From sequence record PZ386973.1: a stretch of DNA of 64,000 nt; one strand, 5' to 3'. Made by a program: the position numbers and the translations under genes. This DNA comes from a phage. The notes below the pieces were generated by a model. The model did not search any database. It saw nothing but the letters and a program-made list of their open reading frames with translations, and had not been told where the DNA came from. Shown in pieces: positions 4,457 to 52,970 of the stretch (position 1 is its first letter; every line of letters starts with the position of its first letter).

Positions 4457-5925
4457 ATATCGCTGGCCTGTTCACCTGTTGAATTTTCAGCTTTGTCTTT
4501 CTTAGCACGTTTAGGTTGAGCCGGCTTATCCTTCTCAATAGGGATAACGAACTCAGCTTCCATTTGAGATATATCTTCCATTGCTAGGTTGGTAGTGTTA
4601 TCCATCCGCAGGGTTTCCCAGTTCATCTTAGGCATAAACTTAACGCTATCAGAAGAACGAGTCTTAACGAAGTCAAACATAATAGCACCTTGACCATTAT
4701 CAGCTTTTGCAGCATTAAGATTAGCAGCCATGTCTGCGGAATCAAGAATCCCCTTTGACATACGTGTTCTACCATCTTGATCGATCTGGTAAGGAGCTAC
4801 GCCAGCCACGTTATGTTTCTGGCAGATAGATTTGAAAGACGAGCTAACAACCATCTGTTCTTTCCAGTCATACATATCAATGGTTTTAGAGTCTGGAAGT
4901 CGGGTTTGGTTAATATAGTCAAGTAGAGCTACTGTAACTTTATCACCATATCTAGCAACTAATTTATTTAATTCTACGTCAACTGTTGTAATAGACAACT
5001 CAGGGTCATAAACAATAATCATAGGAGTATGTAGCTCATACCCTTCTATTAGCCTACTCTCCATATCGTAGAAATCACTCATCTTAGCCATTGTGTACTG
5101 TTTAACGAAGCTATCAAAAAGCTCTTCGCCACCATTAAACATCCTAGCTCTAGTTCTGGCTAATCTCAACAGAGCTGCACCTTCTAGAGTATTATTACGC
5201 ATTGCTAGTGCTGATACACCAGCTAACATGGCTAGATTACGTCTAAATACTTCATGTTCTTTCATCTCAATTGAGAAGTATGGAGCAATATCTCCATTCA
5301 AATATTGCTGAACCTGTATGTTTGAACAGATAATGGATTTACCAGTACCACGCCAACCACCAAGCAGTAACGTTTCTGTGCGAGCTAAACCAATTTGAGC
5401 GTCGAACTCATTACAAATACCAAGAGCGATTAAGTTCAGTTTGGTATCTTCTTCTCTCTGGAAAATACGCATGTTATCTGCGTTGAATACTTTTCCAGTA
5501 TTCGTTACTTTCTCTTCTAATTTTAAGTGAAGGGAGGCAACTCGGTTGAGAATTTCTCCCTGATCCAGCATTGTTAAATCTTGAAGCACGTCTGTTTCTA
5601 GAAGCTTCAGGAATAAATCCTGTGTATACTCGGCCTCTAGGACTTCAAGTGCCTGTTCCATGCTCACTTCTGGAATTTGAGTGTTAGCTAAGACGACTAG
5701 GGCTTGAGAAAGGCGGGCGTTCCTATTAGCTTCAAGCATAAGTGCGTCAATGGACGGCATTGTGTTATATTTTTTATAATAATTCTGGACGGCTTGGTAA
5801 ATTGAGGAGAAAGCGTCATTAAAATGATCTTTATGCAGTTTTGAGAATGTTTCCAATGCTATTTGCTTCTGTTCGGAAGCTAGAAGCATCTTCAACACTA
5901 CAGCTTGCACGTTAAACAAGGTCAT
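4453..5925 (-). CDS. DnaB-like replicative helicase
   Basis: Walker A GGWRGTGKS; start moved to the ATG at 5925, which has an AAGGAGA ribosome-binding site; track ORF extends to 5976. Confidence 0.7.
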   Translation of the reverse strand: MTLFNVQAVVLKMLLASEQKQIALETFSKLHKDHFNDAFSSIYQAVQNYYKKYNTMPSIDALMLEANRNARLSQALVVLANTQIPEVSMEQALEVLEAEYTQDLFLKLLETDVLQDLTMLDQGEILNRVASLHLKLEEKVTNTGKVFNADNMRIFQREEDTKLNLIALGICNEFDAQIGLARTETLLLGGWRGTGKSIICSNIQVQQYLNGDIAPYFSIEMKEHEVFRRNLAMLAGVSALAMRNNTLEGAALLRLARTRARMFNGGEELFDSFVKQYTMAKMSDFYDMESRLIEGYELHTPMIIVYDPELSITTVDVELNKLVARYGDKVTVALLDYINQTRLPDSKTIDMYDWKEQMVVSSSFKSICQKHNVAGVAPYQIDQDGRTRMSKGILDSADMAANLNAAKADNGQGAIMFDFVKTRSSDSVKFMPKMNWETLRMDNTTNLAMEDISQMEAEFVIPIEKDKPAQPKRAKKDKAENSTGEQASDI

Positions 5926-34122: not shown

Positions 34123-35070
34123 ATGTTTGCTACTAAAAATATGAAAGAACTGACTTCTGAGCAGAAAGTAATTCGTACTATTAAACGTTGGGGTATTGGT
34201 GCTGTAGTTGGTTTAGCAGGTTTAATCCTAGCTTTTAATTCATATACTATTGTTTCTGATGGTACGGTTAAAACCCAAACATTCCTGGGTAAAGTAGACC
34301 CTAATCCAGTATTGCCAGGTTTCCATCTTGTAAACCCGTTTGCATCTTTCGATACTTTTAGTACAAAAGATATTGCTGTAAAATTAGATAAACTTCAGGT
34401 TCCTAGTCAGGATAAGTTTAAATCCACTGTTGACCTGACTGTTATGTTGCAGTTTGATGGTTCTAAGGCACCTATTAACCGTATTAATGCGGGTACTCAG
34501 GATCAGGCACTAGACAAGTATGTAACTGAAAAATTACTATCTACTATTCGTGAGTTTGGTAAGTCTGTACCTAAAGCACAAGATTTGTTTGATGCTAAAA
34601 TTCAGGCTCAATTGCAAACTGCAATTCAACAGGAAGTTGAAGAGTATGCACGCCCATATGGTTACACAGTTAAGCAGGTGTTCCTTCAGGATATTACTTT
34701 GCCACCGGTAATCATGGAACAGGTACAGAATACCAAAGTTCGTGAAGAGCAAGTTAATGCTGCGAAAGCTGAACTGGCTCGTGTTGAACAGGAAGCACAG
34801 CAAAAAGTTAAACAAGCAGAAGCAGATCGTGAAGCTCGCAACAACCAAGCTATTGCTAATGAACGTGACGCAGATGCTAAACTGTACGCAGCTAAGAAAG
34901 AAGCTGAAGCTAACGCCGCATTGCAACGTACCATTACTCCTGAGATGATTCGCTGGAAGCAACTGGAAGTTGAAATGATTCGTGCTCAGAAATACCAAGG
35001 TGGTGTACCACAGACGGTAGTTGGTACTGGTTATGATGGCCAGATGATTATGGATATGCGTAACAAGTAA
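34123..35070 (+). CDS. SPFH/band-7 (prohibitin-like) membrane protein
   Basis: N-terminal transmembrane helix, band-7-like core, C-terminal coiled coil; 315 aa. Confidence 0.6.
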   Translation: MFATKNMKELTSEQKVIRTIKRWGIGAVVGLAGLILAFNSYTIVSDGTVKTQTFLGKVDPNPVLPGFHLVNPFASFDTFSTKDIAVKLDKLQVPSQDKFKSTVDLTVMLQFDGSKAPINRINAGTQDQALDKYVTEKLLSTIREFGKSVPKAQDLFDAKIQAQLQTAIQQEVEEYARPYGYTVKQVFLQDITLPPVIMEQVQNTKVREEQVNAAKAELARVEQEAQQKVKQAEADREARNNQAIANERDADAKLYAAKKEAEANAALQRTITPEMIRWKQLEVEMIRAQKYQGGVPQTVVGTGYDGQMIMDMRNK

Positions 35071-35139
35071 TAGTTACACGTAATCTTCGAACCAAGCCTG
35101 CGTTTCCCTCGAGAGCGCGGGCTTTTCTGTATTTAAGGC

Positions 35140-35186
35140 AAAAGAAAAAGCCCCTTACCTTTCGGCAGGGGCTTTTGTTTTTGGTT
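35140..35186. terminator. bidirectional rho-independent terminator
   Basis: Hairpin AGCCCCT...AGGGGCT flanked by an A-run and a T-run, between convergent genes. Confidence 0.7.
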
Positions 35187-35389
35187 TAGAACCACACTCT
35201 CGGTATACAGCAACCACCCATACGGGAGGCCAATCTTGACTGAAAATCTACTCTAGGGGGCAGGATAAGAGTAGGCTTAAAGGCAAACGGATTGAACGCC
35301 GGTATTTGCGTAAACATTGCTGGAGAGCAACAACGTGCTACAGGCATTGGGCAGCACGAAACAGATTTTCTGCAACACATAATTCCTCC

Positions 35390-35806
35390 TTAGGAGTTAT
35401 TACCGCTATTTTGAGCTTTTGCAATTTGGCTTTGGCAGAAGCTATTAAACTTACCCATAAGTGATACAAGCTGCCTCCCATCCTCTGTCTTTGCGAAGTC
35501 TTCGAAAAGGGCTAGTACTGCCTGTCCTTCCGCAGAAACCTGCGGTTGTTGGGTTTGCTGCTGAACTTGCTGCTGAGGCACCTGTTGCTGCATTTGTTGA
35601 GGCATTTGCGACTGCCCGCTCATTTGCTGCATCATTTGCATAGGACTTACACTTCCAGGGTTTTGCTGGAGTTGTTGCTGCATCTGTTGCGCTTCTGCTA
35701 AACGCTGTTGCAATTGTTGTAAGTAGGGGTTATCCAGACCCGGAATGGGCTGCTGGGAGCCCATACTTTGATTAAGTCCGTTATTTACAAAACCATATTT
35801 ACTCAT
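35390..35806 (-). CDS. hypothetical Gln-rich low-complexity protein
   Basis: 138 aa with long Q/M/P-rich tracts. Confidence 0.4.
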   Translation of the reverse strand: MSKYGFVNNGLNQSMGSQQPIPGLDNPYLQQLQQRLAEAQQMQQQLQQNPGSVSPMQMMQQMSGQSQMPQQMQQQVPQQQVQQQTQQPQVSAEGQAVLALFEDFAKTEDGRQLVSLMGKFNSFCQSQIAKAQNSGNNS

Positions 35807-35827
35807 AATGGGCTCCTCCCCTTAATA

Positions 35828-36814
35828 TTAAGCCGGCAGTTTAGCCTGCAGACCAGCCAGAGTCTGAGTGATCGCACCAAGACTTACAGCGATTTGATTA
35901 ATTACCTGACCATTAGCACCGTTACCCGCAGCGATTGCCTCACGTAGGCGACATGCATCTAACTCATCCTGAATACGCGCAGTAGTTACACCAGCGATCG
36001 CAGTCTGAAGTTCACAGCAACATTCAGAGATCTGACGTTCCAGAGAATTCTGGTTAGCACACATCTGAGCCTGAACAGCGGCAAACTGGTTATTAGTTTG
36101 TAAAGTCTGCTGGAAAGCGATCTGTGCAGAATCAAACTTATCTTGTGCACGAGCTATCTGGTTAGCTGCGAAAGATTGATCAATCTGGCGAGAAAGATCG
36201 AACTGACCCTGAATAACGTTGCGAGTTTCCTGGCAGATCTGATTAGACAGATTAGCACCTGTACCATAGATCGTAGTTAGTACAGACTGAGTATCACGGC
36301 TCTGGTTTTGGGATGTCTGGCTAAAACCATTGTTAACTGCGCTTAAAACAGCTCCAGTACCCTGGTTAGCTTCTGTACGAGTAGTGTTAATAGCTGCTAG
36401 AATACTAGCGGTATCTTGGTTCTGAAGTACTGCATCAACTGCGGTACCATCACCAACTACACCACGTCCACCGAATCCACCGAAACCACCGAATCCGCCT
36501 GTTAATAGAGCACCGATTAGGATAGCTCCGAATAGTCCCATACCTTCACCACCGAAAGCACCTGCGTTTGCTGGGTAACCACCCAGTAGGCCAGGGAGGC
36601 CACTAGTAAATACGTTTACTGGTTCTTGCATTTTATGTTTTCCATATTTATGACAATGTTCATCATCGTCATCTTCTTCATCATCGTGTTCACGATGCTT
36701 TTCTTCGTAGGCTCTGACCTTCTCCCACTTTTTCTTATCTGATTCCTCGTGACGGTGCAGTTCTGCTGCAACGCTAGCGACGGTCTCAGGACTCTTAGCT
36801 ACTTCTTCTGTCAT
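35828..36814 (-). CDS. hypothetical Gly-rich protein
   Basis: Start moved to the ATG with an AGGAGG ribosome-binding site (MTEEVAKS); acidic His-rich N-terminus, GGFGGFGGFGG tract, Q/N-rich C-terminal half. Confidence 0.45.
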   Translation of the reverse strand: MTEEVAKSPETVASVAAELHRHEESDKKKWEKVRAYEEKHREHDDEEDDDDEHCHKYGKHKMQEPVNVFTSGLPGLLGGYPANAGAFGGEGMGLFGAILIGALLTGGFGGFGGFGGRGVVGDGTAVDAVLQNQDTASILAAINTTRTEANQGTGAVLSAVNNGFSQTSQNQSRDTQSVLTTIYGTGANLSNQICQETRNVIQGQFDLSRQIDQSFAANQIARAQDKFDSAQIAFQQTLQTNNQFAAVQAQMCANQNSLERQISECCCELQTAIAGVTTARIQDELDACRLREAIAAGNGANGQVINQIAVSLGAITQTLAGLQAKLPA

Positions 36815-37021
36815 TTTTTGACACCTCCTAGTATATAGAAAATGTGTGTCTCTTTGATCACTCATCCATAACATATACTTTACACTACCCCAGCGAAAAT
36901 GTCAAGGGGTCTTTAAAAATTGCCCCCGGATTTTTAGTGGGGTCACAAATTTTGGTCCTCACCACTTATATGCTACCCTTAAGTGCCCTATGATTTTCCT
37001 CTAAAAAGTTAAAAAATTTGA

Positions 37022-37050
37022 TTGCTTGAATGCTAAATTCTCTGTATAAT
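37022..37050 (+). promoter_or_regulatory. sigma70-type promoter
   Basis: TTGCTT-17 nt-TATAAT. Confidence 0.5.
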
Positions 37051-37080
37051 GTATCTATAAATTTGAGAGAGGAACCAAAT

Positions 37081-37599
37081 ATGAATGTTGACGAGCTAAC
37101 ACAGCACCTCTTATCTAGAGGATTTGATACAGATAAATATCATTGCTGGTTAAGTCCGGAAGGATGGCTAACAGTCCCGTTGTATGATTTCTCTGGGATG
37201 TTGAGGGGCTATCAGACGTATAATCCTTCTGCTCCAAAAGGTCATGGTAAGTGCCCCTTTGAGGCTAAATATTTTACCTGCTCTACTACACAGTGTGTAT
37301 GGGGGCTAGAAACTCTCAATGGAGATGAAAAAGTAGTATTGATCGCTGAATCTGTATTTAAGGCAGTTGCGTTACACAACGCTGGTTATCCAGCCCTGGC
37401 AATGTTGGGTTCTTCTCCAGGAAAAGCGTTATTAAAGCAACTGAAATTATTACCTTTTAAATTGGTAGCTGTCGGAGATAATGATCCTGCGGGTGAAAAA
37501 TTTGCTAGAAAATTAAACGGCTTTGTTTCTCCCGTAGATGTGGATGAGATGTCTACCGAAAACTTGAAAAATTTTCTTGCTATGAAGCTAAATTTCTAA
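37081..37599 (+). CDS. Toprim-domain protein
   Basis: Toprim E (LIAES) and DxD (GDNDPAGE); start at the ATG behind a GAGAGAGG ribosome-binding site. Confidence 0.5.
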   Translation: MNVDELTQHLLSRGFDTDKYHCWLSPEGWLTVPLYDFSGMLRGYQTYNPSAPKGHGKCPFEAKYFTCSTTQCVWGLETLNGDEKVVLIAESVFKAVALHNAGYPALAMLGSSPGKALLKQLKLLPFKLVAVGDNDPAGEKFARKLNGFVSPVDVDEMSTENLKNFLAMKLNF

Positions 37600-48994: not shown

Positions 48995-49693
48995 ATGAGG
49001 ATTATTTCTAAGTTCGCCGATGTGTATGATTTGCAGAACAGTTTGTTCGACCCAGATCGTGTGTGGGAACGTAAAACTGAGGAGTTGCTGGTTAAAGTAA
49101 CCGATGACGCAGAAAAGAACATTGTGCATACTCGCCAGGTATTTCGTGATGGTTCGCTATCTTTCCGTGGTGATTTCGAATATTTTGTAAACCCACTATT
49201 TGTTGCAGGTGAGGTTTACTGGTTACACGAGCTGTACTGCTGGCATCCAGCATTTAGCTTCAAAACGTTTAATCTCGACACTATGTTTGATAAAATGGAA
49301 GAGATGGGATTACATGCTCGCTCTTACTTAATGGATAAGAGTCGCGGAGATGTTCGTGAAACAATGCGTGATTTGCTCGCTGAAGCAAAACCTAAAGCAG
49401 AACGTATCTTATCCGAACTGCGTGTACCGATTGCATATGTGAAAGGTATTAAAAAGAACGATAACGATGATGTTCGTAACTTCGTAATTCAGACTAACAT
49501 TCGTTTCCATCAGTCCGGTATTCCGTGGCAGGAAATTGAAAGTAACTTATACCGTTTACACCAAGTTCTCGAACAGTATATCTTCGGTGTACTAGGAACT
49601 GGTGAGCCTGATATGATTAAAGTATCAGATAAAGACAGGTTAGCAGCGCATGGATTTGATACAAAAACTTCTTTCAGGAATATGGCACGGTAA
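48995..49693 (+). CDS. hypothetical protein
   Basis: 232-aa ORF. Confidence 0.45.
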   Translation: MRIISKFADVYDLQNSLFDPDRVWERKTEELLVKVTDDAEKNIVHTRQVFRDGSLSFRGDFEYFVNPLFVAGEVYWLHELYCWHPAFSFKTFNLDTMFDKMEEMGLHARSYLMDKSRGDVRETMRDLLAEAKPKAERILSELRVPIAYVKGIKKNDNDDVRNFVIQTNIRFHQSGIPWQEIESNLYRLHQVLEQYIFGVLGTGEPDMIKVSDKDRLAAHGFDTKTSFRNMAR

Positions 49694-50099
49694 GTGGTAT
49701 ATCCTGGGAGCAGGTCTAGCGATAGGCATCGGATTCGGTGCTTATCACTTAGTAGATAAAGTGGAGACTTTAGCCGGAGATCTTGCGGTAGCTACTAAAA
49801 AGATCTCTTCTCTAGAAACTTCCCTTAATAAGGTGAAAGCTGAGAGCGAACTTCGTGAGACTAGAATGAATCAGTATTTCACAATGAATAATATTTCGCA
49901 AGCAGATCTAGACAAAAAGATTAAGCAGTTAGATAAAGCGCTTAGTCGCCAAGATATTATAGCTGCAAAGCCTGGATTGGTAACATTAATTGCTAAAAAG
50001 CAGAGTAAAGAGTTCGAGGAAAGATTAGCGTGTTTAACTGGAAACTTGGAATACTGCTCGCAGCCGCAATCACAATCACAGGCTGTGCAGAAGAAATAA
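49650..50099 (+). CDS. membrane-anchored coiled-coil protein, i-spanin candidate
   Basis: N-terminal transmembrane helix (WYILGAGLAIGIGFGAY) then a long helical region; overlaps the downstream lipoprotein ORF. Confidence 0.4.
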   Translation: MDLIQKLLSGIWHGKWYILGAGLAIGIGFGAYHLVDKVETLAGDLAVATKKISSLETSLNKVKAESELRETRMNQYFTMNNISQADLDKKIKQLDKALSRQDIIAAKPGLVTLIAKKQSKEFEERLACLTGNLEYCSQPQSQSQAVQKK

Positions 50100-50383
50100 A
50101 ACCAGAGCCATCTCATGAGTTAAAGCAAGCTCATGTAGACTGGCCTAAAGGACTTCAACCTTGTAGCTTTAACTTTAGGTTTGAAAAGAAATTAGCTACA
50201 AATGGAGAAGATGGCGTAGTAGTTGTTATACCATACAAAGATTGGAATGCAAAAGCAAAATGTGAGGAAGCAGTTTACTCTTACATTTCACGACTGACTG
50301 GTATGGTCTGCTTCTATCGTCAAGATTTACAAGAAAAACGTTGCTTAGTTTACTATCCACCCATTACAAATAGGAAAGATTAA
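50030..50383 (+). CDS. lipoprotein, o-spanin candidate
   Basis: Lipobox-like signal LLAAAITITGC; start embedded in the 3' end of the upstream ORF in a different frame. Confidence 0.4.
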   Translation: MFNWKLGILLAAAITITGCAEEIKPEPSHELKQAHVDWPKGLQPCSFNFRFEKKLATNGEDGVVVVIPYKDWNAKAKCEEAVYSYISRLTGMVCFYRQDLQEKRCLVYYPPITNRKD

Positions 50384-51903: not shown

Positions 51904-52560
51904 TTGGAAAAGTTCTTACAATTATTAACGGTACTGCTCCAAGAAGCGAAAGATCCAGCATCGCTTCTTAAACGTCTGCTAACTATCTTAGTTGCTGTCA
52001 TTATTTTCTTATTTGTTAGTAATACTAGCGAGGTGATGTCATTCTTAAAGACTTTCTCCACGTCTGCGGTTCTACAGGATGTTCAAACTCAAAGGATAGA
52101 TAACTTTCCTAATGTAGCTAGAGAAAAGAGCATGGTACTTTTTTCTCAAACGGGTGCGGATGCTGTTTTTGTCGTCAAGTATAAACCAGATGCTATTAAT
52201 GATTATTCTAACATTATTGCATGGGAAAGCAATGCGCAATTAGATAGGGCTGACTTGGCCGATAAAGCGGTAAATAAAACGTCTGAGCTATATAGACGTC
52301 ACTTGGAGGGCTTTAACTACGCATCGGATTTAAGTGTAAAAGTAAATAAATACATGGGGTTAAATATACCTGCGTTTAAGAACGTTACTTTTAATTACAT
52401 ATACACTTGTCCGTATTTCAATCTAAACAATATCTATGCTGGATATATTGGTATTGCTTGGAAAGATAACCCTGTAGATGCAGCCGATTCTGAGAAATTT
52501 AAGGAATATTTAACAAAGCTCTGTTCACCACAACAGAGATCTTTAGGTAGATCAATATGA
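51904..52560 (+). CDS. putative holin
   Basis: 218-aa protein with an N-terminal transmembrane segment directly upstream of the endolysin, 4-bp overlap; TTG start behind an AGAGGAGG ribosome-binding site. Confidence 0.5.
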   Translation: MEKFLQLLTVLLQEAKDPASLLKRLLTILVAVIIFLFVSNTSEVMSFLKTFSTSAVLQDVQTQRIDNFPNVAREKSMVLFSQTGADAVFVVKYKPDAINDYSNIIAWESNAQLDRADLADKAVNKTSELYRRHLEGFNYASDLSVKVNKYMGLNIPAFKNVTFNYIYTCPYFNLNNIYAGYIGIAWKDNPVDAADSEKFKEYLTKLCSPQQRSLGRSI

Positions 52561-52970
52561 GTTTTAAATTTGGTAAAAATAGCGAAAAACAATTAGCTAC
52601 CGTTAAGCCAGAGCTACAAAAAGTAGCTCGTAGAGCTTTAGAATTATCTCCATATGATTTCACGATCGTACAGGGTATTCGTACAGTAGCACAAAGTGCC
52701 CAGAATATTGCTAATGGTACTTCATTTTTAAAAGATCCTAGTAAAAGCAAGCATATTACTGGGGATGCCCTTGATTTTGCTCCATACATTAATGGCAAAA
52801 TTGATTGGAATGATTTAGAAGCATTTTGGGCAGTTAAAAAGGCTTTTGAACAAGCTGGTAAAGAACTGGGCATTAAACTTCGCTTTGGTGCTGATTGGAA
52901 TGCTTCGGGGGATTATCACGATGAAATAAAACGTGGTACCTATGATGGCGGTCATGTCGAACTAGTTTAA
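52557..52970 (+). CDS. endolysin, peptidase M15-like (L-alanyl-D-glutamate peptidase type)
   Basis: 137 aa; zinc-ligand-like H-x6-D (HITGDALD) and C-terminal GGHVE. Confidence 0.75.
   Translation: MSFKFGKNSEKQLATVKPELQKVARRALELSPYDFTIVQGIRTVAQSAQNIANGTSFLKDPSKSKHITGDALDFAPYINGKIDWNDLEAFWAVKKAFEQAGKELGIKLRFGADWNASGDYHDEIKRGTYDGGHVELV

What the first reader, a model, noticed from the sequence alone, without database searches (positions are those of the whole stretch)
35390..36814. Convergently transcribed low-complexity proteins in the middle of the plus-strand block
Two minus-strand ORFs interrupt the plus-strand block: a Gly-rich protein with GGFGGFGG tracts, an acidic His-rich N-terminus and a Q/N-rich C-terminal half, and a Gln-rich 138-aa protein. 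They are isolated by a bidirectional terminator. Such composition suggests phase-separating or fibrous proteins.
Basis: seen in the sequence. Interest (0 to 1): 0.4.

Follow-up and report, generated by a model that had tools for sequence, protein, structure and literature searches.

The report
Three-gene membrane-protein operon of T5
The two odd-looking reverse-strand genes are real, but they belong to an already annotated and dispensable three-gene operon of T5-like phages (T5.077, T5.078, T5.079) whose main product looks like a membrane-anchored helical protein, related to a very large uncharacterised protein family of gut crAss-like phages; its function is still unknown.

Summary
The window is a T5-like phage (96-98% identical to BB1, EC148 and T5). 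Both ORFs exist as described: a 328-aa Gly-, Q- and N-rich protein and a 138-aa protein with 27.5% Gln.

The unit corresponds to T5.077, T5.078 and T5.079. The T5 reference record already annotates its promoter (P12) and its bidirectional terminator. 077 and 078 are under purifying selection (dN/dS 0.13-0.20). The three-gene order persists in cassettes only 36-48% identical. A published T5 CRISPRi-ART screen scores all three genes "Not Fit", and phage MSP1 has lost the cassette.

The "GGFGGFGG" tract is part of a hydrophobic, transmembrane-like segment, followed by about 200 predicted helical residues with an invariant Cys and a nearly invariant CCC motif. The poly-Q tract of 078 is a length-variable linker.

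Profile searches link 077 to phrog_16490, with at least 5,870 "hypothetical" proteins, mostly in crAss-like phages near lysis and capsid genes.

No characterised family, fold or RNA match was found, so the function stays inferred: an accessory envelope-associated module. Phase separation is unsupported.

The parts
36877..36905 (-). Promoter of the operon (T5 'P12'): -35 TTGACA, 17-nt spacer, -10 TAAAGT
   Evidence: The consensus scan gives 10 of 12 matches. The equivalent position is annotated as promoter P12 in NC_005859. It is invariant in 22 unique T5-like sequences. It differs from the stereotyped early promoters of the surrounding tRNA region.
36815..36876 (-). 5' untranslated leader with the Shine-Dalgarno site AGGAGG; the transcription start was not mapped
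   Evidence: It is 100% identical to T5, IrmaTschudi and STG2, and nearly every position is invariant in 22 unique sequences. No significant RNA fold was found (z=-1.3).
35828..36814 (-). Gene 1, orthologue of T5.077 (328 aa): predicted single-pass or membrane-inserting helical protein
   Evidence: Supported by the ORF and its SD site, by a full-length match to phrog_8119 (E=2e-203), by dN/dS of 0.14-0.18, and by its presence in 223 phage records.
36581..36814 (-). 077 residues 1-78: acidic, His-rich N-terminal domain with a predicted helix at 12-39/42 and the motif ELxxHExxD
   Evidence: See the composition, the conserved motif in alignment A1, and the AF2 models, where helix 12-39/42 has the highest pLDDT (68-81). 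crAss-type relatives lack this domain.
36473..36541 (-). 077 residues 92-114: Gly-rich hydrophobic segment (MGLFGAILIGALLTGGFGGFGGF), a putative transmembrane helix
   Evidence: The Kyte-Doolittle 19-residue maximum is 1.72, at residues 93-112. L103, G110 and G112 are invariant, and G91, G93, G107 and F111 are nearly invariant.
35843..36442 (-). 077 residues 125-324: long Q/N/A-rich alpha-helical domain
   Evidence: DSSP on both AF2 models gives helices at 125-168 and 175-324. Amphipathic periodicity of 3.67-3.75 residues is significant for residues 129-200 (p about 0.0005). The C-terminal NGQVINQIAVSLGAITQTLAxLQ is invariant in T5-type sequences.
36014..36022 (-). 077 Cys265-Cys266-Cys267 (CCC motif); Cys252 lies at 36059-36061
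   Evidence: C252 is invariant and C265-267 are nearly invariant across 18 sequences. C252 is also invariant across 150 sequences that include crAss-type relatives. The CCCE/CCCD motif is present in remote relatives.
35390..35806 (-). Gene 2, orthologue of T5.078 (138 aa): N-terminal helix, variable Q/P/M-rich linker (about residues 46-88) and a conserved C-terminal domain of about 45 aa; no export signal
   Evidence: Supported by the ORF and its SD site, a full-length match to phrog_7894 (E=1e-79), dN/dS of 0.13-0.20, alignment A5, and its presence in 223 phage records.
35186..35380 (-). Gene 3, orthologue of T5.079 (64 aa): starts MCC, has 8 Cys in four CC pairs and 9 Pro, and is basic.
   Evidence: The ORF has the SD site TAAGGAGG 5 nt before the ATG. 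It is annotated as T5.079 in NC_005859 and is present by tblastn in 222 records. An MCC-starting small ORF occupies the same position in distant cassettes L006, L009 and L010. Caveat: the substitution pattern among close relatives does not by itself prove coding.
35146..35176 (.). Bidirectional intrinsic terminator that closes the operon
   Evidence: The hairpin folds at -22.8 (minus strand) and -22.9 (plus strand) kcal/mol, with z-scores of -4.1 and -3.7, and has U-runs after it on both strands. T5 annotates it as an 'efficient bidirectional rho-independent transcription terminator'.

Best explanation
This is the T5.077-T5.078-T5.079 operon of a T5-like phage. It is a self-contained, non-essential accessory unit with its own sigma-70 promoter, an invariant leader, three tightly packed genes with strong ribosome-binding sites, and a bidirectional terminator.

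Shown: the genes are real, conserved and co-inherited. Gene 1 carries a hydrophobic Gly-rich segment and a long predicted helical region with a conserved Cys/CCC motif. Genes 2 and 3 have no export signals.

Inferred mechanism: gp077 inserts into the inner membrane through the Gly-rich segment. Its variable acidic N-terminal domain faces the cytoplasm. Its conserved helical C-terminal domain of about 200 residues projects into the periplasm. There the conserved cysteines would lock it into a disulfide-linked oligomeric rod. A 150-residue helix is about 22 nm long, roughly the width of the periplasm.

gp078 and gp079 would be cytoplasmic partners of the N-terminal domain. All three features occur only in the T5-type branch of the family.

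My best guess is that the module modulates a late envelope event, either lysis or outer-membrane disruption, or the state of the envelope after infection. It would give an advantage only under natural conditions.
For: Identity with T5.077-079, promoter P12 and the terminator.

Coding and purifying selection.

Co-occurrence of all three genes in about 222 Tequintavirus and Epseptimavirus records.

The same three-gene order in cassettes only 36-48% identical (Pseudomonas phage RSP and two metagenomic T5-like contigs).

Hydrophobic segment with KD 1.72. Conserved Gly, Cys and CCC positions. All-helical prediction.

Dispensability: CRISPRi-ART scores all three genes 'Not Fit' (PMC11879866); the cassette is naturally deleted in MSP1 and gene 1 is annotated as split in SE11.

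Late or envelope context of remote relatives: crAss-type homologues lie within 1-3 kb of holin and endolysin genes and near capsid genes in three lineages.

The N-terminal domain, 078 and 079 are confined to the T5-type branch. crAss-type relatives lack the N-terminal extension and are followed by unrelated PHROGs.

Promoter P12 is unlike the neighbouring early promoters.
Against: Topology was not determined. Charge bias around the hydrophobic segment is weak, and the hydrophobic core is short (about 15-19 residues), so a re-entrant or peripheral insertion, or the opposite orientation, remains possible. If the Cys-rich domain is cytoplasmic, the disulfide-rod idea fails.

Both AlphaFold2 models have low confidence (pLDDT 52 and 49), and heptad periodicity is not significant.

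There is no expression-timing or proteomic evidence for these genes.

The phage already has a canonical holin, endolysin and an overlapping i-spanin/o-spanin pair (window 49650-50383 and 51904-52970; PMC6813398, PMC4342426), so no lysis step is obviously missing.

The proximity to lysis genes in crAss-like phages may only reflect the compact late module.

No characterised family, structure or defence model matches.
Confidence: 0.35

Rival explanations
1. Superinfection exclusion or viroporin-like function. gp077 oligomerises through its Gly-rich helix in the inner membrane and either forms a small channel or blocks the route of incoming phage DNA. This would protect the infected cell from secondary infection or alter its membrane potential. 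gp078 and gp079 would regulate it.
For: gp077 has a single hydrophobic Gly-rich segment with invariant glycines. The operon is dispensable in single-phage laboratory culture and lost in some isolates, as is typical of exclusion genes. It is an independently transcribed unit in a variable accessory region.
Against: Known exclusion proteins are small and unrelated. Nothing explains the conserved 200-residue helical domain or the CCC motif. There is no PADLOC or PHROG functional hit. The glycine spacing is not the classical GxxxG zipper.
Confidence: 0.2
2. Cytoplasm-facing thiol- or metal-binding complex. The Cys-rich helical domain of gp077, the eight cysteines of gp079 and the His-rich acidic N-terminus bind a metal (Zn, Cu or Fe-S) or act in thiol chemistry at the inner face of the membrane.
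For: gp079 has four CC pairs and no export signal, so it should sit in the reducing cytoplasm. CCC and C252 are conserved in gp077. His-rich tracts, up to HHYHHHHHEHY, occur in many orthologues. All three genes are always together.
Against: The His-rich tract is lineage-specific and absent in distant T5-type and crAss-type proteins. In gp079 only the MCC start and one further CC pair are conserved across distant cassettes. No known metal-binding family matches.
Confidence: 0.15
3. One reading: soluble low-complexity proteins that phase-separate or form fibres or amyloid in the infected cell.
For: gp078 is 27.5% Gln, and the gp077 C-terminal half is Q/N/A-rich. A very long helix is predicted. 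The top PDB fold match, though not significant, is vimentin.
Against: The Q-rich tract is the least conserved and most length-variable part of gp078. The Gly-rich tract is hydrophobic and membrane-like. The conserved features are discrete motifs (MQEPVNVF, CCC, the C-terminal helix, the gp078 C-terminal domain) rather than bulk composition.
Confidence: 0.07
4. A second, non-canonical spanin-like device that links or fuses the inner and outer membranes at lysis.
For: gp077 combines a membrane anchor with a long helical domain and conserved Cys, as in Rz-type i-spanins. gp079 is small and Pro-rich like o-spanins. crAss-type relatives lie near holin and endolysin genes and end in a Gly/aromatic tail with a C-terminal Phe. 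A Q-rich 'spanin' family is reported in crAss-like lysis cassettes, but its identity with this family was not established (bioRxiv 10.1101/2021.08.26.457843).
Against: The phage already has a canonical overlapping i-/o-spanin pair. The hydrophobic segment starts at residue 92, not at the N-terminus. gp079 has no signal peptide or lipobox. The operon is not in the lysis cassette. An HMM of crAss-type tails does not detect gp079.
Confidence: 0.08

Closest known systems
Escherichia phage T5 genes T5.077, T5.078 and T5.079, with promoter P12 and the bidirectional terminator (NC_005859 / AY543070)
   Same: These are orthologues with the same order, spacing, promoter and terminator. Protein identity to T5 is 89% (077), 94% (078) and 94% (079). 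PHROGs: phrog_8119, phrog_7894, and a singleton for 079.
   Different: Only strain-level differences were seen, for example a longer acidic tract and a different last few residues of gp079. All three are 'hypothetical protein' in every record. Some records wrongly name gp078 'cAMP-dependent protein kinase catalytic subunit', an artefact of its poly-Q tract.
phrog_16490, the uncharacterised ~310-335-aa proteins of crAss-like phages (annotated 'hypothetical', 'spike protein/glycoprotein' or 'outer capsid protein/viral fiber')
   Same: They share a Gly/aromatic-rich hydrophobic segment followed by GGFGG-type repeats, a long Q/N-rich helical region and a CCCE/CCCD motif. The T5-type profile hits them at E=5e-29 to 1e-10 over profile positions of about 61-316. 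They also hit phrog_8119 directly.
   Different: They lack the acidic N-terminal domain. They carry an extra C-terminal tail (KQPNTVPVQWPNL...GNGFGNNIVF or ...SFWG). They lie in the late structural and lysis block. They are followed by unrelated small genes rather than 078- or 079-like genes. Identity to gp077 is only about 15-27%.
Two-component spanins (lambda Rz/Rz1 type)
   Same: The resemblance is in general form: a membrane-anchored helical protein with conserved cysteines, plus a small Pro-rich protein encoded just downstream.
   Different: There is no sequence relationship. The anchor is not N-terminal, gp079 has no lipoprotein signal, and the operon is not in the lysis cassette. The phage has its own canonical pair at window 49650-50099 and 50030-50383.
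T4 holin T with its antiholins RI and RIII (a class III holin system)
   Same: The proposed architecture is similar: cytoplasmic N-terminus, one membrane segment, a large C-terminal domain containing cysteines, and small partner proteins. This comparison rests on my own knowledge of the T4 system.
   Different: There is no sequence similarity. The window's actual T-like holin is a different gene (51904-52560, phrog_860). No lysis inhibition is documented for T5.
Fusion peptides of class I viral fusion proteins (influenza HA2 begins GLFGAIAGFIE)
   Same: The hexapeptide GLFGAI at gp077 residues 93-98 is identical to the start of the HA2 fusion peptide (recalled from memory), and a Gly-rich hydrophobic segment is followed by long helices.
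   Different: A six-residue identity in a low-complexity hydrophobic context is expected by chance. No homology was detected. This is a resemblance only.

Membership tests
T5.077 orthologue group (phrog_8119) | Full-length match to the family profile | tested here: met
   E=2.4e-203, residues 1-328 against profile positions 1-332 of 332. Identity to T5 gp077 is 89%.
T5.078 orthologue group (phrog_7894) | Full-length match to the family profile | tested here: met
   E=1.1e-79, residues 1-138 against profile positions 1-139 of 139. Identity to T5 gp078 is 94%.
T5.079 orthologues | A 64-aa MCCRK... ORF immediately after the 078 gene and before the terminator | tested here: met
   tblastn finds 222 records at 80% identity or more. 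It is annotated as T5.079 in NC_005859. There is no PHROG family.
Superfamily joining phrog_8119 and phrog_16490 (crAss-type) | Significant profile-to-sequence matches covering the hydrophobic segment, the helical region and the CCC motif | tested here: met
   The profile search gives 332 clusters at E<=1e-3 and 36 at E<=1e-10. Remote hits belong to phrog_16490, and several also hit phrog_8119 at E=1e-6 to 1e-7. C252 is invariant in the 150-sequence alignment. Compositional bias could inflate the scores.
Two-component spanin, i-spanin component | N-terminal transmembrane domain followed directly by a periplasmic coiled-coil domain | tested here: not met
   The hydrophobic segment lies at residues 92-114, after a 90-residue charged domain. 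Heptad periodicity is not significant.
Two-component spanin, o-spanin component | Signal peptide with a lipobox Cys | tested here: not met
   gp079 begins MCCRKSVSCCP, with no hydrophobic signal region or lipobox. The window's true o-spanin candidate does have one (LLAAAITITGC).
Two-component spanin, genomic context | Location in the lysis cassette of a phage that has no other spanin | tested here: not met
   The holin and endolysin lie at 51904-52970 and a canonical overlapping spanin pair at 49650-50383, about 13 kb from the operon. T5-like spanins are also reported in PMC6813398 and PMC4342426.
Any curated protein family (Pfam-A, NCBIfam, PADLOC) or solved structure | A match above the family threshold | tested here: not met
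   Pfam gives only sub-threshold hits (RIFIN 15.9 bits against a cutoff of 32). NCBIfam and PADLOC give nothing significant. The PDB sequence profile search gives E>0.6. Foldseek against PDB gives E>6.
Prion-like or phase-separating Q/N-rich proteins | A conserved Q/N-rich low-complexity domain that drives assembly | tested here: inconclusive
   The Q-rich tract is present (27.5% Q), but its length and sequence are not conserved, whereas the flanking domains are. No assembly assay is possible with these tools.
Integral membrane protein (bitopic) | One hydrophobic segment long enough to span the bilayer, and membrane localisation | tested here: inconclusive
   The KD 19-residue mean of 1.72 exceeds the usual 1.6 threshold, but the core is short and Gly-rich, and AF2 confidence there is low. 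Localisation and topology cannot be tested here.

The most novel reading that the evidence does not exclude
gp077 and its crAss-type relatives (at least 5,870 proteins) could be a new class of phage envelope proteins. They would be inner-membrane-anchored, cysteine-locked helical rods that span the periplasm and act on the outer membrane or on lysis timing, independently of known holins, spanins and disruptins. In T5-like phages the rod would be controlled from the cytoplasm by two dedicated small proteins (078 and 079). T5 would then be the first genetically tractable model for one of the most abundant uncharacterised protein families of the human gut virome.
Probability: 0.15. Interest if true: 0.65.

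Novelty: already known. Interest (0 to 1): 0.3.

Why it matters
As sequence features, the genes, their promoter and their terminator have been annotated in T5 for two decades, and a genome-wide knock-down screen found them dispensable. The finding itself is therefore ordinary.

Two results add modest value. First, the cassette is a conserved three-gene module, including an almost always unannotated 64-aa Cys-rich gene. Second, its main protein belongs to a very large family with no Pfam domain that is otherwise found mostly in crAss-like gut phages, where nothing can easily be tested genetically.

If the family has a defined envelope function, T5 offers a simple system to find it, using deletion, complementation and topology mapping in E. 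coli K-12.

Tried and rejected
Family searches. Pfam, NCBIfam, PADLOC and PDB sequence searches gave no meaningful hit.

Structure. Two AlphaFold2 runs, with an 18-sequence and then a 150-sequence alignment, both gave low confidence (pLDDT 52 and 49). Foldseek against PDB gave nothing significant. Further fold searches were judged pointless.

Gene fission. I tested whether gp079 is the detached C-terminal tail of crAss-type proteins. An HMM of 94 tails does not detect any 079 variant above background among 1,475 ORFs, so the idea was rejected.

Canonical coiled coil. Power at period 3.5 is not significant. Only amphipathic periodicity of 3.67-3.75 in residues 129-200 is significant.

RNA element. 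To explain the extreme nucleotide conservation of the 079 region and the leader, I searched Rfam, which returned only terminator-like sub-threshold hits. Fold z-scores were -1.7 and -1.3.

Spanin reading. Rejected for membership; see the membership tests.

Bacterial homologues. A scan of one genome per species found none. Two earlier attempts failed because the alignments were too divergent. IMG/VR returned only known isolates.

Literature. Searches by gene names, accession numbers and PHROG ids gave no functional study. The hits were prefix matches to unrelated accessions. No per-gene T5 expression data were found.

Failed calls. One search was a query-syntax error and a script path error; neither has scientific content.
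Full report
What the window is. A 4-kb stretch around the finding is 96-98% identical to Escherichia phage BB1, EC148, T5_ev212 and many other Tequintavirus genomes. The window runs in the reverse orientation to the T5 reference. The region lies in the tRNA-rich early region: 22 tRNA genes, all on the plus strand. It sits between an SPFH/Band-7 gene (34123-35070, T5.080) and a Toprim gene (37030-37599, T5.076).

Checking the observation. Both minus-strand ORFs exist at the stated coordinates.
- Residues 1-78 are acidic and His-rich (21 D/E, 7 His).
- Residues 79-128 are 38% Gly and contain GGFGGFGGFGG.
- Residues 129-328 are rich in Q, A, T and N.
- The 138-aa product is 27.5% Gln.

A hairpin at 35146-35176 folds equally well on both strands (-22.8 and -22.9 kcal/mol) and has U-tracts on both, so it is a bidirectional terminator.

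Directly after the 138-aa gene comes TAAGGAGGAATTATG and a 64-aa ORF at 35186-35380: MCCRKSVSCCPMPVARCCSP...GGCCIPRVWF. It has 8 Cys in four CC pairs and 9 Pro, and it is basic.

The unit has its own promoter, TTGACA-17-TAAAGT at 36905-36877. The T5 reference record already annotates exactly this arrangement: promoter P12, T5.077, T5.078, T5.079 and an 'efficient bidirectional rho-independent transcription terminator'.

Are the genes real?
- Among 28 T5-like genomes, 63% (077) and 58% (078) of variable nucleotides are at third codon positions (p=3e-27 and 2e-8).
- Pairwise dN/dS is 0.13-0.20 at dS of 0.15-1.06.
- All three genes are found together in 222-223 phage records from Tequintavirus and Epseptimavirus.
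- The same three-gene order recurs in cassettes only 36-48% identical: 'Pseudomonas phage RSP' (a GC-rich, unverified record) and two metagenomic T5-like contigs of about 110 kb.
- In each distant cassette the third ORF again starts with MCC, has a second CC pair and is Pro-rich.

One oddity remains. Within Tequintavirus and Epseptimavirus the 079 segment is much more conserved at the nucleotide level than its neighbours: 30% of codons vary, against 71% and 57%. Third-position enrichment there is not significant (p=0.09). No RNA family or stable fold explains this.

The P12 promoter and the whole leader of about 62 nt are also invariant in 22 unique sequences. P12 looks nothing like the stereotyped early promoters that surround it.

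Anatomy of the proteins.

gp077 has four parts:
- A variable acidic N-terminal domain with a predicted helix and a conserved ELxxHExxD motif.
- A conserved MQEPVNVF(T)NG motif.
- The most hydrophobic stretch of the protein, LFGAILIGALLTGGFGGFG (KD 1.72), with invariant and nearly invariant glycines.
- About 200 predicted helical residues with invariant C252, nearly invariant C265-C267 and an invariant C-terminal helix.

The hydrophobic periodicity is amphipathic (3.67-3.75 residues) in residues 129-200. It does not show a significant heptad pattern.

gp078 has a conserved N-terminal helix and a conserved C-terminal domain of about 45 residues. A Q/P/M-rich linker joins them, and its length varies about five-fold between lineages. 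The poly-Q tract is therefore probably a spacer rather than the functional part.

Neither gp078 nor gp079 has an export signal.

Relatives. No curated family, defence model or solved structure matches. Both AlphaFold2 runs gave low confidence, and Foldseek found nothing.

A profile of T5-type gp077 sequences, searched against 1.84 billion representatives, found 332 clusters at E<=1e-3. The remote ones are proteins of 250-340 aa that lack the acidic N-terminus. They share the Gly/aromatic hydrophobic segment, the helical Q/N-rich region and a CCCE motif. They belong to phrog_16490.

These relatives come from crAss-like phages, where they are annotated 'hypothetical', 'spike protein/glycoprotein' or 'outer capsid protein/viral fiber'. 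A search with a mixed alignment returned at least 5,870 proteins at E<=1e-5; the 120 best listed carry no Pfam domain and no informative name, and many sit on contigs of about 100 kb.

In three crAss lineages the gene lies in the late block, 1-3 kb from holin and endolysin genes and a few kb from the capsid gene. It is followed by a conserved set of small genes unrelated to 078 and 079.

The crAss-type proteins carry an extra tail (KQPNTVPVQWPNL...GNGFGNNIVF). Of 117 tails, 63 end in Phe. An HMM of these tails does not detect gp079, so the gene-fission idea was dropped.

What is known experimentally. [quoted passage not shown]

Nature has done the same experiment. Phage MSP1 retains only the 3' half of 079, next to a homing endonuclease gene, and SE11 has gene 1 annotated in two pieces.

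I found no paper that addresses the function or expression timing of these genes.

Mechanism. The following are shown: an autonomous, conserved, dispensable three-gene operon; a protein with a membrane-like segment and a long helical Cys-marked domain; and two small partners without export signals.

The following are inferred:
- gp077 is anchored in the inner membrane. The part conserved across the whole superfamily (hydrophobic segment plus helical domain) lies outside the cytoplasm.
- The lineage-specific N-terminal domain lies inside the cytoplasm.
- The conserved cysteines form disulfides.
- gp078 and gp079, which occur only where the N-terminal domain occurs, bind that domain.
- A continuous 150-residue helix would be about 22 nm long, comparable to the width of the periplasm.
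- Together with the late, lysis-proximal position of the crAss-type relatives, this points to an accessory role in a late envelope event. I give this about 0.35.

The phage has a complete canonical lysis set: a holin at 51904-52560, an endolysin at 52557-52970 and an overlapping i-/o-spanin pair at 49650-50383 (PMC6813398, PMC4342426). The operon is therefore not 'the' spanin and fails the spanin membership tests.

Verdict. The feature itself is already annotated in T5.

The added value is the recognition of the conserved third gene and the link to a very large uncharacterised crAss-phage family, for which T5 could serve as a model. Interest is modest.

Noticed in passing
window 35186-35380 (minus strand): The 079 segment is far more conserved at the nucleotide level than the adjacent genes among 28 T5-like genomes: 30% of codons vary, against 71% (077) and 57% (078), and only 7 of 64 codons show purely synonymous variation. 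This suggests a constraint on the nucleic acid itself. No Rfam hit or stable fold was found.
   Followed up: partly
window 36815-36945 (minus strand): Promoter P12 and the whole 5' leader of 077 are invariant in 22 unique sequences, so they are more conserved than the coding regions. P12 (TTGACA/TAAAGT with a GC-rich spacer) is unlike the stereotyped early promoters of the tRNA region (TTGCT...TATAAT ATATT.ATAAATT). This hints at a different temporal or regulatory class.
   Followed up: partly
window 35094-35124 (plus strand), GCGC at 35115-35118: A second terminator hairpin serves the SPFH gene. By coordinate transfer it contains the site that the T5 record annotates as a 'major DNA single-chain interruption' (nick; consensus Pu-pGCGC), which lies about 32.6% of the way along the T5 genome.
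   Followed up: partly
window 37030-37599 (plus strand): The neighbouring Toprim protein (T5.076) is listed in the CRISPRi-ART re-annotation as anti-defence ('subverts retron-mediated defense') and scored 'Semi-Fit'. In Epseptimavirus this flank is replaced by NadR/PnuC-type genes, while the cassette and the SPFH gene stay together.
   Followed up: no
window 49650-50099 and 50030-50383 (plus strand): This looks like a canonical overlapping spanin pair. The first is a 149-aa protein with an N-terminal transmembrane segment and a coiled-coil-like domain. The second is a 117-aa lipoprotein (lipobox ITGC). They lie about 1.5 kb upstream of the holin (51904-52560) and endolysin (52557-52970).
   Followed up: partly
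L013 (Phage MSP1, MT989367) 1711-2554; L014 (Salmonella phage SE11) 367-1353: The cassette has been lost naturally. MSP1 keeps only the 3' half of 079, next to a homing endonuclease gene. SE11 has the 077 gene annotated as two fragments, from either a frameshift or a sequencing error.
   Followed up: partly
GenBank records JLBYU40, ESCO30, HMD-P4, Sepoy, Seabear: The 078 orthologue is annotated 'cAMP-dependent protein kinase catalytic subunit' in several records. There is no kinase domain (Pfam gives nothing). The name is almost certainly propagated from a poly-Q BLAST artefact.
   Followed up: yes
L005 (crAss-like phage cr273_1) 5001-5900, codon at 5751-5753: The crAss-type homologue contains an in-frame stop codon inside the annotated CDS, consistent with the stop-codon recoding of late genes reported for crAss-like phages.
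   Followed up: no
L006 (MK443266, 'UNVERIFIED Pseudomonas phage RSP') 3518-5118: A GC-rich 63-kb record carries the complete three-gene cassette at 40-48% protein identity. The module therefore exists outside the AT-rich enterobacterial T5-like genomes. The nature of this phage was not examined.
   Followed up: no
L015-L017 (crAss-like contigs), about 1-3 kb downstream of the 077-like gene: The crAss-type gene heads a conserved run of small genes of about 112, 130-154, 70, 131 (DUF7841) and 131 aa, all of unknown function. In L017 a holin-like gene and a DUF5675 gene follow.
   Followed up: partly
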